The notes beneath the pieces are model-generated. The model was given only the letters and a program-made list of their open reading frames with translations, was not told where the DNA came from and did not search any database. 39,388 nt of DNA from a virus. Lineage: Duplodnaviria; Caudoviricetes. The stretch is taken from IMG/VR virus record IMGVR_UViG_3300037657_000017, positions 1 through 39,388 of that record; one strand, given 5' to 3'. A program made the translations under genes and the position numbers. Positions 10,192 through 36,604 of the stretch are shown here, piece after piece. Numbering within the stretch: position 1 is the first letter of the stretch; the number at the start of each line of letters is the position of its first letter.

Positions 10192-10539
10192 ATGGCTGAG
10201 TTGACACCTGGCCGCGAGATGGATGCGGCGGTTGCGAGGGAGATAGGGTGGAAGTTGGAAACGGGCTATTCCAAGTATCCGCAATGGGAACACGCCCACG
10301 GTCTGCGCCCTGCTGCAAATTGGATGCCGTCAACCCGTAACGAGGATGCGCTCATCGCTGCCAACGAACTATTAGCGCAGAAGCGTATCGGGGCGTATGC
10401 CGTCATCGTGCTACCAGACCACGCCGAGGCAAAGTTGTACAACGACGCACATGACCCGATAGCAGGCGAGGACGGCAAGACACTGGCCGAAGCCATCTGT
10501 GCGGCCATCCTCGCATTGGAGGCACATGATGGACGCTGA
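10192..10539 (+). CDS. Phage ABA-sandwich (BC1872-like) domain protein
   Basis: GREMDAAVAREIGW...PSTRNEDA...TLAEAICAAIL pattern. Confidence 0.75.
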   Translation: MAELTPGREMDAAVAREIGWKLETGYSKYPQWEHAHGLRPAANWMPSTRNEDALIAANELLAQKRIGAYAVIVLPDHAEAKLYNDAHDPIAGEDGKTLAEAICAAILALEAHDGR

Positions 10540-11083
10540 GCGCGTCGAGAAGCTGATCGGGCTGCACGCGGACTTGGAGCAGGCGGTACGCGAGATACCA
10601 CTCACGTTTGGACAGATTGCTCTCATTGACGCCGAGGACTATGAATCAGTATCAGCATATCCGTGGCGCGCTATGCGAGACGAAACAACGGGCGGGTGGC
10701 GCGCCCATACGACTGTTTATGATGGCAATGGGAAGCGGCACGATATTCAGATGTCCCACCTTGTTATGCGTGCCGAACCAGGCGATCAAGTTGACCATCG
10801 TTTCCACAACACACTTGATAATAGGAAGGCCAACTTGCGCAAGTGTACGCAGGCGCAAAATAACTTCAACCAACGGCCTCGCAAGGGAACGTCAGAATAC
10901 AAGGGCGTGTCATGGGAAAAGCGTCGCTGCAAGTGGCGAGCGCAAATCGTGTACAACTATAAGAACAAGTTTATCGGCTGCTTTTCCAGTGAGGTGGACG
11001 CTGCACGCGCTTACGATAAGGTAGCCCACATTTTGTTTGGTGAGTTTGCTTTCCTCAACTTTCCAGCGGAGGTGATGGCGTGA
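10526..11083 (+). CDS. HNH homing endonuclease with C-terminal AP2 domain
   Basis: VDHRFHNTLDNRKANLR HNH core; YKGVSW...WRAQI...IGCF...AARAYD AP2 domain; lower GC than neighbours. Confidence 0.93.
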   Translation: MMDAERVEKLIGLHADLEQAVREIPLTFGQIALIDAEDYESVSAYPWRAMRDETTGGWRAHTTVYDGNGKRHDIQMSHLVMRAEPGDQVDHRFHNTLDNRKANLRKCTQAQNNFNQRPRKGTSEYKGVSWEKRRCKWRAQIVYNYKNKFIGCFSSEVDAARAYDKVAHILFGEFAFLNFPAEVMA

Positions 11084-14943: not shown

Positions 14944-17061
14944 ATGGACTTCACAACGAGATTACGGGCGGCATTACGCCTCTTCAAGACCGGAAGCGCC
15001 GACATCGGCAATGCCGCAACGTTCGGCTATACGCCTGATGAGTACCAGCCTGCCGAGTATGTCACCTATCTGGCGACATCGAATGCGGTCTATACATGTG
15101 CGCGCCTGCGTGCTGACGCGCTGGCCAGTCTGCCCATGCGCCTGTATCGCGGCGTGGGCGACAAGCGCACCGAGGTCACGGCGGGCGCGCTCTACAAGCT
15201 GCTGCACATGGTCAACCCGCATTGGACGATGCAACGCCTGACCGCCATGCACGAATACAGCATGTGCTCATGGGGCGAAGATTACTGGTTCTTAGAGCGC
15301 GGCATGAGCGGCAAGCAGCCGCCGCGTGAAATCTGGTGGGGGCGCGCTGATCGCGTGACCGTCTACCCGCACCCGACCGAGTACATTGCAGGCTATGGCT
15401 ACCTTCCGGCAGACGGGCAGCAGGAGATACCGTACACACCCGACGAGGTGATCGCCTTCCGCAACCCGAACCCGGCCAATCAATATCGTGGCCTGTCATC
15501 GTTGGCAGCAGCCCGGCTATCGGCAGACACGGCAAGCGCGGCGATGAAGAGCAACCGGGCCATCTTCGCCAACGGCGTGCAGATGGGCGGCATGATCAGC
15601 CCCAAGAGCGGTCAGACGTTTACGGCGGAGCAGGCCAAAGACCTGGAGACCGACATCGCCCGGCGTTTCAAGGGCGCCGACAAGGCACACAAGATTGGCG
15701 TGTTCCGCTTTGAGGCTGAGCTAAAGTCTGTCGGTATCACGCCCAAAGATGCGGAGTTCCTGGGCATGTTGCGCTGGACATTGGAAGACGTGTGCCGGGC
15801 CTATGGTGTGCCGCTTGACCTGGTGGGCGGGCAGCGCACCTACGAGAACACGAACGCCGCCATGCTCGCGCTGTGGACGCAGACGGTCATACCAGCCAAG
15901 CGCCTGCTCGAGCAGGAATTGACCGAGCAGCTACTCCCGATGTTCCCTGGCCAGGCGGACAGCATCGAGCTTGACACGTCTGATGTCGCCGTGCTGAAAG
16001 ACGACGACGCGGCGGCCTGGGTCATGGCGCAGGGGCAGATTGACCGGGGCGCGATCACGATCAACGAATGGCGCGAGAAGCAGGGGATGACGCCGGTTGC
16101 ATGGGGGAATGTGTTCTGGGCGTCGAGTGCCATGACGCCGGTCGAGAATGGCGACAAGCCAGAGCCGCCACCTGCGCCGGTTGTTGTTGCGCCTAAGGAA
16201 GAAACCGAAGAAACCGAAGAAACCGAAGAAACTGTTTCTTCGGAGGAAAGTAAGCAGCCCGAACGCATGGCGCGCATGATTGACTACGCCTACGGCAGCG
16301 AGCTACACCGGCTCTATTGGCTCAACTTCACACGGTCAACCGACTCTTGGGAGAAGCGACTCACGCCAGTGGTGCAAGAGCTATTCCGCCGGCAACGACT
16401 GAGCGTGCTTGACCGCCTACGGGGTAGGTCCATGCGCTCGCCTGCTGACGTGGCCGATGACCCGTTTGACAAGGCGACGTGGGTCAAGCGCTTCCGTGAG
16501 GCCGTCAAGGTTGTCATTGCGGCGATCATCGAAGACGCGGGCGAGTCGGCGCTGAAGGCGTTGGCGCTGAGTATGGGCTTCGATGTGCACGACCCACGCG
16601 TCGACGCCTTCCTACTGGCCAGGGCGCAGCGCTTCGCAGAGCACGTCAACGATACGACATACGAGGCATTGCAGAAGTCGCTCATCGAAGGCATCAATGC
16701 GGGCGAGGATATTCCGACGCTAGCCGCACGTGTTGACGCCGTGATGCACGACAGAATAAAGAGCACGCCGGAAGCCATCGCACGCACCGAGGTGATTGGG
16801 GCGTATAACGGTGGGACATTGCAGGCATGGAAGCAGTCAGGCGTCGTGACAAAGAAGACATGGCTGGCTGCCATTGATGGGCGGCAACGGGATACACACG
16901 AAGAGGCGCACAACGAATACCAGGCGCATCCAATACCCATTGAGAATGATTTTGTCGTGGGCGGCTTCTCCGGCCCGTGTCCCGGCTCAATGGGCGACGC
17001 GGGGGAAGACATCAACTGTCGCTGCACCATGACGGCAGTTATCGACGTGCTGGATAAGTAG
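14944..17061 (+). CDS. HK97-family portal protein fused to a C-terminal MuF (Mu gpF) minor head domain
   Basis: Portal motifs (GLSSLAAA, CRAYGVP, TINEWRE); acidic linker; IARTEV...KKTW...R..H...INCRC MuF signature. Confidence 0.92.
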   Translation: MDFTTRLRAALRLFKTGSADIGNAATFGYTPDEYQPAEYVTYLATSNAVYTCARLRADALASLPMRLYRGVGDKRTEVTAGALYKLLHMVNPHWTMQRLTAMHEYSMCSWGEDYWFLERGMSGKQPPREIWWGRADRVTVYPHPTEYIAGYGYLPADGQQEIPYTPDEVIAFRNPNPANQYRGLSSLAAARLSADTASAAMKSNRAIFANGVQMGGMISPKSGQTFTAEQAKDLETDIARRFKGADKAHKIGVFRFEAELKSVGITPKDAEFLGMLRWTLEDVCRAYGVPLDLVGGQRTYENTNAAMLALWTQTVIPAKRLLEQELTEQLLPMFPGQADSIELDTSDVAVLKDDDAAAWVMAQGQIDRGAITINEWREKQGMTPVAWGNVFWASSAMTPVENGDKPEPPPAPVVVAPKEETEETEETEETVSSEESKQPERMARMIDYAYGSELHRLYWLNFTRSTDSWEKRLTPVVQELFRRQRLSVLDRLRGRSMRSPADVADDPFDKATWVKRFREAVKVVIAAIIEDAGESALKALALSMGFDVHDPRVDAFLLARAQRFAEHVNDTTYEALQKSLIEGINAGEDIPTLAARVDAVMHDRIKSTPEAIARTEVIGAYNGGTLQAWKQSGVVTKKTWLAAIDGRQRDTHEEAHNEYQAHPIPIENDFVVGGFSGPCPGSMGDAGEDINCRCTMTAVIDVLDK
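16198..16243 (+). repeat. Tandem 9-bp repeat (GAAGAAACC x4) followed by one inverted copy
   Basis: Encodes EETEETEETEET in the portal-MuF linker; GTTTCTTCGG (16234-16243) is the reverse complement of the unit. Confidence 0.9.
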
Positions 17062-22288: not shown

Positions 22289-22972
22289 ATGAACATCAAG
22301 CCTCTGCTCGGCTTCCCGGTCGAGCGCACAGGCACGGTCAACGGGGAGACGCTGCAAGCAATGGCGCGCATATGGGCGCAGGGCTGGCCGCAAGTCTGGA
22401 CTGATTACGGACGCATCGACCTGACCCGCTGTAGGATGGCCCAAGAGCTACTCAAGAGCGATTGCACGCATCTGATTATGCTCGACGCTGACCACATTCA
22501 CCCGCCGGAAGTGGTGCACAAGCTCCTACGTTGGGCGGTCAAAGACAGAGACAAGTACCAGGTTGTGGGGGGCTTGAATTACCGGCGTGGCGAGCCGTAC
22601 GAGGCGCTGGCCTTCCTGAGAGATGAGAATCGCAACTACTACACCTATGAGGATTGGCCGCCGGGCCTGCACCAGGTGGCGGCGCTGGGCACGGGGAGCA
22701 TCTGCATTGATCGGCGGGTCTTCGAGGCCATCCCTGCACCGTGGTTTGCCTACTCCTACCCGCAGAAGTACACGGACGATGGCAGCTTTGGATGGCCCAC
22801 GGAGGATACGTACTTTGCACAGAAATGCGAGGAGTGCGGTATTCAGCAGTGGGTTGACACAACGGTCACAAGCCCGCACGCAAAATGGGTGTATGTGGAT
22901 AAAGCATACGGCGACGAACACAGGACTAAGACGCATTCTCCACAATCGAATGACATGACGGGCAGTAAGTGA
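22289..22972 (+). CDS. GT-A fold (GT2-like) glycosyltransferase
   Basis: THLIMLDAD (DxD), GTGSICIDRRVFE, TEDTYFAQKC motifs; GGAGG RBS. Confidence 0.85.
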   Translation: MNIKPLLGFPVERTGTVNGETLQAMARIWAQGWPQVWTDYGRIDLTRCRMAQELLKSDCTHLIMLDADHIHPPEVVHKLLRWAVKDRDKYQVVGGLNYRRGEPYEALAFLRDENRNYYTYEDWPPGLHQVAALGTGSICIDRRVFEAIPAPWFAYSYPQKYTDDGSFGWPTEDTYFAQKCEECGIQQWVDTTVTSPHAKWVYVDKAYGDEHRTKTHSPQSNDMTGSK

Positions 22973-23540
22973 TGAGGTTCGTCAGGGCGTTGGCTGCATC
23001 GTAGTCTTCGCCAAAGGAAAGCAGCGGGCGAATATGGTGAATGTGAAGTTGTGCGTCTAGCTGCTGCTGAGTGATGCCGCAACGCTGACATGTATGGTTA
23101 TCGCGATCGAGTACAAGAGCGCGCTGGTCGCGCCAGTGCGGGGCATAGTATGGTGGGTATCCGCCTTTCCATCGGGGGTGATCGGGGCCGACACGGTGGG
23201 AAGATTGCCATTGACCCGTGCACACCAGAGAGCAAAAGACGTGTTTTGGCGTGCGCTTACCGGAGTTCATACACTTGCGGGTGATTGGGCCGCCACACTG
23301 AGCACACCGGGGACGGTGCTCTGCACGCTGGTGCTCAGCATCACGCCATCTGTGAAGGCCGGAACAGTGGCCGGAGCAGGTAGTGGTGGGGTGGCTTCTA
23401 GAGGTAGTGAATTGCTTATGACAGACGGGGCACGTTTGGGTAATTGTGCGGCAAGCGGAGCAATACTTACACCCGTTGTGGCTATTGGTGAACGAAGCGC
23501 CGCACTGGGCGCAAATAACAGGCACTGTGCGTCGTGGCAT
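22926..23540 (-). CDS. HNH endonuclease with N-terminal Zn-finger repeats (mobile homing-type)
   Basis: Three CxxC...CS repeats; HPRWKGG; RDNHTCQRCG...HIHHIRP...NLITYCPSCH. Confidence 0.92.
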   Translation of the reverse strand: MPRRTVPVICAQCGASFTNSHNGCKYCSACRTITQTCPVCHKQFTTSRSHPTTTCSGHCSGLHRWRDAEHQRAEHRPRCAQCGGPITRKCMNSGKRTPKHVFCSLVCTGQWQSSHRVGPDHPRWKGGYPPYYAPHWRDQRALVLDRDNHTCQRCGITQQQLDAQLHIHHIRPLLSFGEDYDAANALTNLITYCPSCHSIVENAS

Positions 23541-23643
23541 TATGTCTCTCCCGTGTGAGATTGTTGTCCCGTGGCGTGTGTGTGGACCTCATCACGGGAA
23601 TGAGTGTCAGCGGTTCATGAGGCCGCTCTAGGTCCACAGACAC
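23541..23643 (-). ncRNA. Cloverleaf-like structured leader of the HNH gene (C4-antisense-RNA-like architecture)
   Basis: Closing stem GTGGACC/GGTCCAC, hairpins AGCGG/CCGCT and CTCAT/ATGAG; loop UCCCGUG complementary to two downstream CACGGGA sites. Confidence 0.7.
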
Positions 23644-23644
23644 A

Positions 23645-23673
23645 AGTATAGCGTTTCTTGACACAATAGTCAA
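23645..23673 (-). promoter_or_regulatory. Sigma70 promoter of the HNH cassette
   Basis: Minus strand TTGACT, 17 bp, TATACT. Confidence 0.8.
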
Positions 23674-23688
23674 GTGGAGGGTAATACG

Positions 23689-24720
23689 ATGGGTATCCGT
23701 GCCCTTTCGAGGATCGAGATCGGAAAAGAGACCACAGCCGGGACTGCAGTATCGTGTGATGTTCTGCTCCAGGCAGAGGGCATGATGAAGGATGCACAGG
23801 ATCGCGCCTTCCCGGTCGAGGGCAGCGAGTTTGTGTTTCCGACATCCGGCAGCTACATCCGCAAGGAAGGCGTCGAGATCACGCTTGACGACAGCCCGGC
23901 CACAACGGAGATTTTGCCGCACATCTTTGGCATGGGTGTTGCGGGCGGCGTGAGTGCAGCGGCCGCGGACGGTTCGGCGTACGCCTACATCTACCCCTTC
24001 CCGATCACCGCAGCCAACACCGCGCCAGACCCCTACACCATCGAAGGCGGCGACGACTCGGAAAGCGGCGAGGCGTCGTATTGTTTCGCCACACGGTGGG
24101 GCTTGAAGTGGGCGGCAGGAGAGGAACTGATGATGAACGCCGACATCGTCGGGCGGCAGTGGACAGATTGCGCATTCACCGGCACAAATCCGTCTGTGGC
24201 GCTGCACTACCTCCCCAAAGCGAAGCTGTACGTTGACGCGACCGGCGCAACGGGCTTCAACACACAGAAGACGCAGACGTTCATGGGCTTCGAGGTGGAG
24301 GGCGGGGGATGGAAGCCGGTGCATACCGGCGACGGCGAGTTGTTCTATACCTTCCCCAAGTATTACGGCCAGAAGGAAGGCAACGAAATCACCGGCGTCA
24401 TCACCTACGAACACGACGCCACGGGTGAGGCTGAACTGAACTTTGCACGGGCTGGCACGGTTCGCCTGGTCAAGGTTGTCTTCGAGGGCGACGCGGTGGC
24501 GACAGGCGGCACAACCTACAGCAAGCACAGCGTGATCTTCGATGCGGCGATTCAGTACACCGATGTGCCGGAGTTGGAAGACCTCGACGGCAACAATACC
24601 GTACCGCTTCCTTTCCGTGTGGTCTACAGCGTGGCCGATGCAACAGCGATTATCTCCGGCCCAACAGGGACAGGCGCGGGCGGGCTGGTGGTTGTCAATG
24701 AACTTTCAGCTTTGCCCTGA
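23689..24720 (+). CDS. Major tail (tube) protein
   Basis: IEIGKETTAGTAV N-terminus, YTIEGGD; upstream of chaperones and tape measure. Confidence 0.85.
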   Translation: MGIRALSRIEIGKETTAGTAVSCDVLLQAEGMMKDAQDRAFPVEGSEFVFPTSGSYIRKEGVEITLDDSPATTEILPHIFGMGVAGGVSAAAADGSAYAYIYPFPITAANTAPDPYTIEGGDDSESGEASYCFATRWGLKWAAGEELMMNADIVGRQWTDCAFTGTNPSVALHYLPKAKLYVDATGATGFNTQKTQTFMGFEVEGGGWKPVHTGDGELFYTFPKYYGQKEGNEITGVITYEHDATGEAELNFARAGTVRLVKVVFEGDAVATGGTTYSKHSVIFDAAIQYTDVPELEDLDGNNTVPLPFRVVYSVADATAIISGPTGTGAGGLVVVNELSALP

Positions 24721-36530: not shown

Positions 36531-36604
36531 ACGGGATTGGTCTAATGGCAGGGCAGTCGCCTCCAAAGCGACAGGTGGGTGTTCGATTCACTTATCCCGT
36601 GCCA
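36531..36604 (+). tRNA. trnW: tRNA-Trp(CCA)
   Basis: Acceptor ACGGGAT/ATCCCGT, G73 and encoded CCA; anticodon arm GTCGC-CTCCAAA-GCGAC; TTCGATT T-loop. Confidence 0.93.

What the first reader, a model, noticed from the sequence alone, without database searches (positions are those of the whole stretch)
22926..23673. Autonomous HNH cassette with a cloverleaf leader that targets its own ribosome-binding site
Seen (minus strand): TTGACT-17-TATACT promoter, then a three-way RNA (closing stem 23576-23588/23631-23643, hairpins 23609-23627 and 23588-23604). Its 7-nt loop UCCCGUG is exactly complementary to two downstream CACGGGA copies (23567-23573 and 23549-23555), the second overlapping the GGAG SD of the HNH gene. 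The cassette lies antisense within the late operon and overlaps the glycosyltransferase 3' end by 47 bp. Established: P1/P7 C4 and P4 CI RNAs are cloverleaf antisense RNAs processed from the transcript they repress. Inference: a mobile nuclease carrying its own RNA silencer, expressed only transiently in naive cells; a guide role is less likely.
Basis: partly seen in the sequence, partly recalled or inferred. Interest (0 to 1): 0.75.

Follow-up and report, generated by a model that had tools for sequence, protein, structure and literature searches.

The report
Twin-target RNA lock on phage nuclease
A DNA-cutting-enzyme gene inserted backwards among this phage's tail genes has its own predicted promoter and starts with a predicted three-armed RNA whose loop matches two downstream sites, one over the ribosome-binding site; a distant relative keeps the same pairings in different letters, so it likely acts as a built-in brake on making the enzyme.

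Summary
Observation confirmed. The promoter, three-way fold, 7-nt loop, twin targets, HNH gene and 47-bp overlap are all present. Twin-target pairing arose in 0 of 20,000 shuffles. One direct homologue (L341, HNH 47% identical) keeps the loop and both targets, with 3 compensatory stem changes and a replaced P2 hairpin. New here: the SD-proximal target sits in the loop of a small SD hairpin (kissing-loop geometry), and the fold starts at the predicted transcription start. The cassette is optional at the glycosyltransferase/tail-tube junction, and a 43%-identical homologue there is leaderless. A sequence-unrelated leader family shows loop-target covariation ahead of HNH, GIY-YIG, LAGLIDADG and TnpB genes, which argues against a guide role. 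Best reading: a translational lock acting within the same transcript (0.5). No Rfam match; no paper found. The scan reported this class before on other DNA (26 notes, at least 24 genomes).

The parts
23645..23673 (-). Predicted sigma70-type promoter (-35 23673-23668, -10 23650-23645), directly abutting the tail-tube gene's ribosome-binding site on the opposite strand
   Evidence: equivalent promoter in L341
23581..23638 (-). Predicted three-way-junction leader RNA: P1 23638-23632/23587-23581, P2 23627-23623/23613-23609, P3 23604-23600/23592-23588; predicted start site about 23637
   Evidence: 3 compensatory changes versus L341
23593..23599 (-). 7-nt P3 loop UCCCGUG (anti-SD)
   Evidence: sequence; invariant in L341
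23567..23573 (-). Target 1, complementary heptamer 7 nt after P1 (likely competing decoy or second binding site)
   Evidence: kept in L341 10 nt after P1 while its flanks diverged
23545..23560 (-). Predicted P4 hairpin (4 bp) showing target 2 (23555-23549) in its loop and covering the SD GGGAG (23552-23548)
   Evidence: 5-bp version in L341
22926..23540 (-). Free-standing HNH endonuclease, 204 aa, N-terminal CxxC zinc-ribbon repeats, H169/N188/H197 invariant in the homologues aligned
   Evidence: PF01844, phrog_1271, alignments; GC3 0.605, lowest of 22 long ORFs measured
22289..22972 (+). Glycosyltransferase-like gene; its last ~15 codons are the antisense of the HNH 3' end, in place of the tail found in homologues
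   Evidence: weak PF00535; C-terminal alignment
23689..24720 (+). Tail tube gene, downstream flank of the insertion
   Evidence: homologues carry PF18906; 'tail tube' reading of that accession is recalled

Best explanation
This is an optional, likely mobile homing-type HNH cassette whose leader RNA likely locks its own ribosome-binding site: the predicted P3 loop would pair within the same transcript with the loop of the small hairpin that carries the SD (a kissing-loop lock), keeping nuclease output low. Steps. (1) Shown in sequence: promoter motif, fold, loop, two targets, ORF. (2) Shown by comparison: P1/P3 pairing and conservation of loop and targets (L341); loop-target covariation in an analogous family. 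(3) Inferred: a host sigma70-type polymerase transcribes it from about 23637, including in the lysogen, so the nuclease must be held down. (4) Inferred: P1+P3 form first, P4 forms about 20 nt later, and the 7-bp kiss blocks 30S loading. (5) Most speculative: target 1 is transcribed 18 nt before target 2 and competes for the loop, giving a short or fractional window for translation. (6) Inferred from T4 precedent: the little nuclease made cuts cassette-free alleles near the glycosyltransferase/tail-tube junction in co-infecting relatives and is copied in by recombination; late-operon transcription through the cassette would add antisense repression.
For: Direct homologue L341: 23 of 23 proposed pairs hold in both sequences, 3 by changes on both sides, and slid controls pair 29-67%. 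P2 sequence is replaced yet still folds. By my reading, P1 begins 6-8 nt after the -10 box in the window, L341, L145, L161, L343 and L344. No terminator-like site lies between RNA and targets, so the pairing partners share one transcript, with 24-25 nt from P1 to target 2. In the window the nested ensemble leaves the SD 8% unpaired, versus 52% when the loop is forced open. Analogous family chosen only by a P2 seed: the loop pairs 6 or more bases with its own downstream region in 16 of 22 versus 56 of 462 mismatched pairings, 0 of 100,000 permutations; the target is enclosed by a hairpin of 3 or more bp in 19 of 20 (null mean 2.4 bp, 0 of 500). Two genomes each hold two intact leaders with different loops, each matching its own gene. 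G-U pairs in L161, L145, L344 and L293 work only on the nuclease sense strand. Optional presence: 13 of 25 tail-tube loci with a glycosyltransferase homologue have it ending within 35 nt of the tube start; HNH hits in 2 of 80 loci (self and L402).
Against: Only two direct family members; the shuffle control is reached in 54 of 500, and loop and targets do not vary between them, so their pairing is shown by conservation, not covariation. The covarying family differs in sequence and junction geometry, its members are related to each other, and 2 of 22 (L238, L339) lack a matching target and were dropped before the P4 count. In L341 the nested fold sends the loop to target 1 and leaves the SD 73% unpaired, the opposite of the window. 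One loop cannot use two targets at once, so a pure cis lock does not by itself explain target 1. No kissing-loop energies were computed and there are no expression data. Cassette-free loci are distant (tube identity 45% or less), not true empty alleles.
Confidence: 0.5

Rival explanations
1. C4/CI-like trans silencer: a ~57-nt RNA is released by 3' processing or premature termination, accumulates, and binds targets on new transcripts; target 1 would soak up the transcript's own loop so that silencing depends on accumulated RNA, giving a burst of nuclease only in naive cells and cross-repression of incoming cassettes with the same loop.
For: Two conserved targets; L341 folds loop-to-target 1 in cis (-22.4 versus -16.1 kcal/mol for target 2) with the SD open. 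The isolated 57-80 nt RNA folds stably as the junction. P1+P3 give a tRNA-like 7+5 bp stack with a 7-nt loop. L013 and L246 put the loop in a terminator-like hairpin followed by two targets. Loops differ between leaders of one genome. Precedents: C4 (PMC5320573, passages), P4 CI and IsrK (PMC4825925, passages).
Against: No Rfam C4/c4-2 match at E up to 10; no upstream target; no 5' precursor; no U-tract; no unusual C-over-G bias after P1 (30% of windows are as biased); single 7-bp contact; in the window the nested fold favours target 2.
Confidence: 0.3
2. Two-state switch or kinetic timer: the leader flips between the junction and a nested fold in which the loop strand zips onto one target, controlled by transcription timing, by the opposing late transcript or by an unknown ligand or protein.
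For: Nested alternative folds are 6.3 kcal/mol more stable than the junction plus P4 in both homologues when no kissing energy is counted. The loop begins with UCCCG, the L5 consensus of cobalamin riboswitch kissing loops (PMC10327014, passages).
Against: The preferred nested fold differs between window and L341; P2 sequence is not conserved, so no ligand pocket is evident; no cobalamin riboswitch match in Rfam.
Confidence: 0.13
3. Guide or scaffold RNA for the nuclease (IscB/omega-RNA-like).
For: Structured RNA directly 5' of an HNH gene; weak HNH-only match to an IscB structure (E 0.0013).
Against: L342 (43% identical, same site) is leaderless, with ATG 6 nt after the -10 box; at 204 aa there is no RuvC or RNA-binding scaffold; analogous leaders sit on unrelated nuclease families; the loop matches the gene's own RBS.
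Confidence: 0.03
4. Chance complementarity in an ordinary leader.
For: The heptamer is common; about 1.5% of ATG starts show the single-target pattern (10 of 672).
Against: 0 of 20,000 shuffles give two targets; conserved with compensatory changes at 47% protein identity.
Confidence: 0.02

Closest known systems
RBS-sequestering hairpins of T-even homing endonuclease genes (I-TevI/II/III, segB, Aeh1 mobE; PMC2988022, passages seen)
   Same: Free-standing phage endonuclease held down by RNA structure over its ribosome-binding site
   Different: T4 uses one local hairpin bypassed by a late promoter inside it; here a three-way junction starts at the gene's own sigma70-type promoter, pairs loop-to-loop and has two targets, and the cassette is antisense to its operon
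P1/P7 C4 antisense RNA (Rfam RF01695) and P4 CI RNA (seen through passages of PMC5320573 and PMC4825925)
   Same: Three-helix RNA in the leader of the transcript it would repress; a loop complementary to an RBS region
   Different: No sequence or model match; no RNase P 5' leader; no upstream target; one pairing loop; controls a nuclease, not an antirepressor or replication operon; trans action not shown
Cobalamin riboswitch L5-L13 kissing loop (PMC10327014, passages seen)
   Same: Junction loop starting UCCCG kissing a downstream hairpin loop to block translation in cis
   Different: No aptamer core, no Rfam match, no ligand expected
IscB/omega-RNA (HEARO) systems (recalled)
   Same: Structured RNA 5' of an HNH gene in a mobile cassette
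   Different: No RuvC or PLMP domain, RNA much shorter, leaderless homologues exist
Terminase-associated phage HNH (PDB 5h0m; best solved relative, E 8.9e-9)
   Same: HNH catalytic domain with zinc site
   Different: Not next to terminase, optional, antisense, with extra zinc-ribbon repeats

Membership tests
C4 antisense RNA / c4-2 / P4 CI | Match to the Rfam covariance models | tested here: not met
   none at gathering score; none at E up to 10 in 23300-23900
C4 antisense RNA / c4-2 / P4 CI | Three-helix fold with an exposed loop complementary to the RBS region | tested here: met
C4 antisense RNA / c4-2 / P4 CI | Two pairing loops (a', b') or targets both upstream and downstream | tested here: not met
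   only the P3 loop has targets, both downstream; the P2 loop is not conserved in L341
C4 antisense RNA / c4-2 / P4 CI | 5' end cut by RNase P from a longer precursor | tested here: inconclusive
   P1 begins at the predicted start site, so no 5' leader is predicted; start site not mapped
C4 antisense RNA / c4-2 / P4 CI | Stable small RNA acting in trans | not testable with these tools
   needs RNA data or experiments
Free-standing homing endonuclease | Intact nuclease domain with DNA-binding repeats | tested here: met
Free-standing homing endonuclease | Optional presence between conserved genes | tested here: met
   occupied in window, L341, L342, L402; relatives are distant
Free-standing homing endonuclease | Cleaves cassette-free alleles and is over-inherited | not testable with these tools
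   needs biochemistry or crosses
T-even HEG RBS hairpin | Structure over the SD | tested here: met
   P4 and loop pairing, predicted only
T-even HEG RBS hairpin | Late promoter inside the structure that bypasses it | tested here: inconclusive
   only sigma70-type sites scanned; none inside; this phage's late promoters are unknown
Cobalamin riboswitch | Aptamer core matching Rfam models | tested here: not met
IscB/omega-RNA | RuvC + PLMP + HNH protein with obligatory RNA | tested here: not met
   204 aa, Pfam HNH only; leaderless homologue L342

The most novel reading that the evidence does not exclude
Homing endonuclease cassettes carry their own RNA immunity system: the leader releases a small tRNA-shaped RNA that silences the nuclease in resident genomes and any incoming cassette with the same loop, while the upstream target copy prevents self-silencing so that the enzyme fires only on entry into a naive cell; different 7-nt loops define non-cross-reacting immunity groups shared across HNH, GIY-YIG, LAGLIDADG and TnpB nucleases.
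Probability: 0.25. Interest if true: 0.78.

Novelty: new variant of a known kind. Interest (0 to 1): 0.52.

Why it matters
How free-standing homing endonucleases limit damage to their own phage and host is known mostly from T4 hairpins, and that review calls the control of the remaining ones not obvious (PMC2988022, passages). This element gives a concrete, testable RNA mechanism that travels with the nuclease and recurs, in different letters, on unrelated nuclease families. The twin-target form with its own promoter is a good case for separating a cis lock from a trans, entry-triggered silencer. Compact leaders with swappable 7-nt loop/target pairs could also serve as orthogonal translation switches.

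Tried and rejected
Rfam: window at gathering score gave only tRNA-Trp; 23300-23900 at E up to 10 gave 4 chance-level hits; 10 related loci at E up to 0.1 gave none. Exact-heptamer collection scans were mostly chance: one search gave 7 loci (self, L013, 5 unrelated), and one search gave 119 loci, mostly without a stem around the loop. A loop-free pattern for the direct family (119 loci; 84 distinct matches scored, L341 included) gave only self, L341 and one doubtful hit, L479. Flanking repeats or target-site duplication: none evident. Rho-type C-over-G bias: not unusual. Sequencing runs: no RNA holder listed; two DNA runs carry the same cassette with no differences or joints, and one may be this DNA's source. 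Genome scan: 2 haloarchaeal loci without the leader. The first automatic family analysis (16 of 22 usable) mis-folded several members and was redone by position. The MAFFT alignment of that family did not register the targets, so no pair count or covariance model was made from it. One GC3 value was out of frame and is replaced; the end coordinates printed, the window, L344 and L207 folds and two flank translations were mis-set and not used. Literature: 9 searches listed no paper on this leader. PMC10690425's supplement lists unnamed candidate RNAs within 25 bp of HNH, GIY-YIG and NUMOD3 genes, but its files 1, 2 and 4 were not searched, and the supplement of PMC5737381 could not be read, so an unnamed prior prediction is not excluded.

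Full report
Setting. The window is a temperate-looking siphophage record: serine recombinase, HTH repressor, RecT, terminase, portal, head and tail genes, 55% complete by CheckV. It is held by two groundwater DNA runs, one possibly its source. Between a glycosyltransferase-like gene (22289-22972) and the tail tube gene (23689-24720) lies, on the opposite strand, a 204-aa HNH gene with zinc-ribbon repeats (PF01844; phrog_1271).

Observation. The promoter motif and the heptamer are each within chance, but their arrangement is not: 34 of 20,000 leader shuffles give a loop with one SD-proximal target and 0 give two. It is the only such case among 115 window ATG starts, and the two-target form occurs in 0 of 672 starts in 79 other HNH loci. 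Two refinements follow. Target 2 is displayed in the loop of a 4-bp hairpin that also covers the SD.

Direct homologue. The metagenome scan returned 9 loci. L341 encodes a 47%-identical HNH, also antisense and directly before a tail-tube start (my reading). Its leader keeps the promoter spacing, the loop and both targets. P1 and P3 differ by 3 double changes and no broken pair (23 of 23 pairs), and P2 has an unrelated sequence but still folds. With two sequences this is strong in pattern but weak in statistics (54 of 500 shuffles reach it). The loop-target pairs are invariant, so they are supported by conservation only. Closer homologues (71% and 75%) have no DNA available here. Three pattern scans of viral contigs found no further direct member.

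Mobility. Of 80 tail-tube loci (self included), 25 have a glycosyltransferase homologue nearby, 13 of these end within 35 nt of the tube start, and only self and L402 carry an HNH of this family. L341, L342 and L402 hold three different HNHs antisense at the same position. The window's glycosyltransferase follows its homologues up to a conserved EH and then runs into HNH antisense sequence, which explains the 47-bp overlap as an insertion scar. The HNH has the lowest GC3 of 22 long ORFs (0.605; flanking genes 0.74). These relatives are distant, so a true empty allele was not seen, and cleavage is untested.

Wider class. Among 80 viral HNH loci most have no such leader: of 62 distinct ones, 39 had no promoter seen, 5 were leaderless, 10 had short and 8 long leaders. 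By inspection L145, L161, L201 and L207, plus L343 and L344 from metagenomes, carry a closing stem with an internal anti-SD segment in different letters. G-U pairs there work only on the sense strand. A seed from L201's P2 hairpin, independent of loop and target, retrieved 22 distinct leaders among 121 loci. Their P3 loops pair with their own downstream region far better than with others' (16 of 22 at 6 or more bases versus 56 of 462; 0 of 100,000 permutations on 19 distinct words; relatedness not corrected). In 19 of 20 the target sits in a hairpin loop (L238 and L339 dropped for lacking a target; L282 and L313 targets set by eye). Of 16 downstream ORFs scanned, Pfam gave HNH or NUMOD3 (2), GIY-YIG (3), LAGLIDADG-like (1), TnpB (1), CapR (1), DUF7487 (2), HTH or zinc ribbon (2) and nothing (4). 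Two records hold two intact leaders each, with different cognate loops; a third holds one intact and one broken copy. This family differs from the window's RNA in sequence and junction geometry: it is an analogue, not a homologue.

Mechanism. The RNA pairs with its own RBS region, is dispensable for the nuclease family (L342 is leaderless), and rides on unrelated nucleases, so it is regulatory rather than a guide. Cis versus trans is open. For cis: both partners lie in one transcript 24-25 nt apart, no terminator-like site separates them, there is no Rho-type bias, no processing is needed, and in the window the SD is 8% unpaired with the loop free versus 52% with it forced open. For trans: the second target, L341's preference for target 1 with the SD 73% open, the tRNA-like 7+5 bp stack, and terminator-type variants with twin targets (L013, L246). 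I commit to the cis kissing-loop lock with target 1 as a competing decoy (0.5), ahead of the C4/CI-like trans silencer (0.3) and a two-state switch (0.13). No kissing-loop energy was computed and no RNA data exist here.

Comparison with what is known. It works like the T-even HEG RBS hairpins (PMC2988022, passages) and like the cobalamin riboswitch kiss (PMC10327014, passages). It resembles C4/CI in layout (PMC5320573, PMC4825925, passages; PMC2864571 and PMC5737381, passages) but fails the C4 membership tests that could be run. Rfam has no match, and nine literature searches listed no description (search listings only). PMC10690425 (passages and one supplement table) lists unnamed candidate RNAs before HNH and GIY-YIG genes whose sequences I could not see. 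This scan has noted the class on other DNA: 26 notes in at least 24 genomes and a groundwater phage case; none matched this sequence or genome. Those notes are unchecked leads; the score rests on my own tests.

Verdict. A real, conserved, uncatalogued regulatory leader on an optional nuclease cassette; a new variant of a known kind; interest 0.52. What this case adds is the conserved twin target behind a dedicated promoter, which makes the cis/trans question directly testable.

Noticed in passing
window 36531-36604 (+): Phage tRNA-Trp(CCA) whose 3' end, just before the encoded CCA, reads the same 7 letters as the leader loop; within chance (7.5 expected in the window)
   Followed up: partly
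window 23622-23617 (-): The P2 loop holds 6 nt complementary to the P3 3' strand/P1 junction and could open P3; not conserved in L341
   Followed up: partly
window 10499-11083 (+): A second HNH gene (HNH_3 + AP2) with low GC3 (0.62) and no loop-target leader at any of four starts tested
   Followed up: partly
L013 1150-1256 and L246 200-312: Terminator-like hairpins with an anti-SD loop followed by two targets, before an MT-A70 methyltransferase gene (L013, same heptamer as the window) and an unannotated 101-aa ORF (L246)
   Followed up: partly
L250/L561 and L563: One record carries two leaders of the seed-defined family with different loops, one in front of a TnpB (Cas12f1-like) gene
   Followed up: partly
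L141-L150, L184, L202, L342-L344, L402: Many HNHs of this family appear to sit antisense with their promoter right against the ribosome-binding site of a plus-strand gene; orientation was not counted systematically
   Followed up: no
L341 1943-2728: A second zinc-ribbon-repeat gene, probably another HNH, lies about 1 kb from the first, beyond the glycosyltransferase
   Followed up: no
L150, L175, L191 upstream of the HNH start: Simpler or inverted variants of loop/SD complementarity in HNH leaders
   Followed up: no
window 14944-17061 (+): Portal protein fused to a Mu gpF-like domain
   Followed up: no
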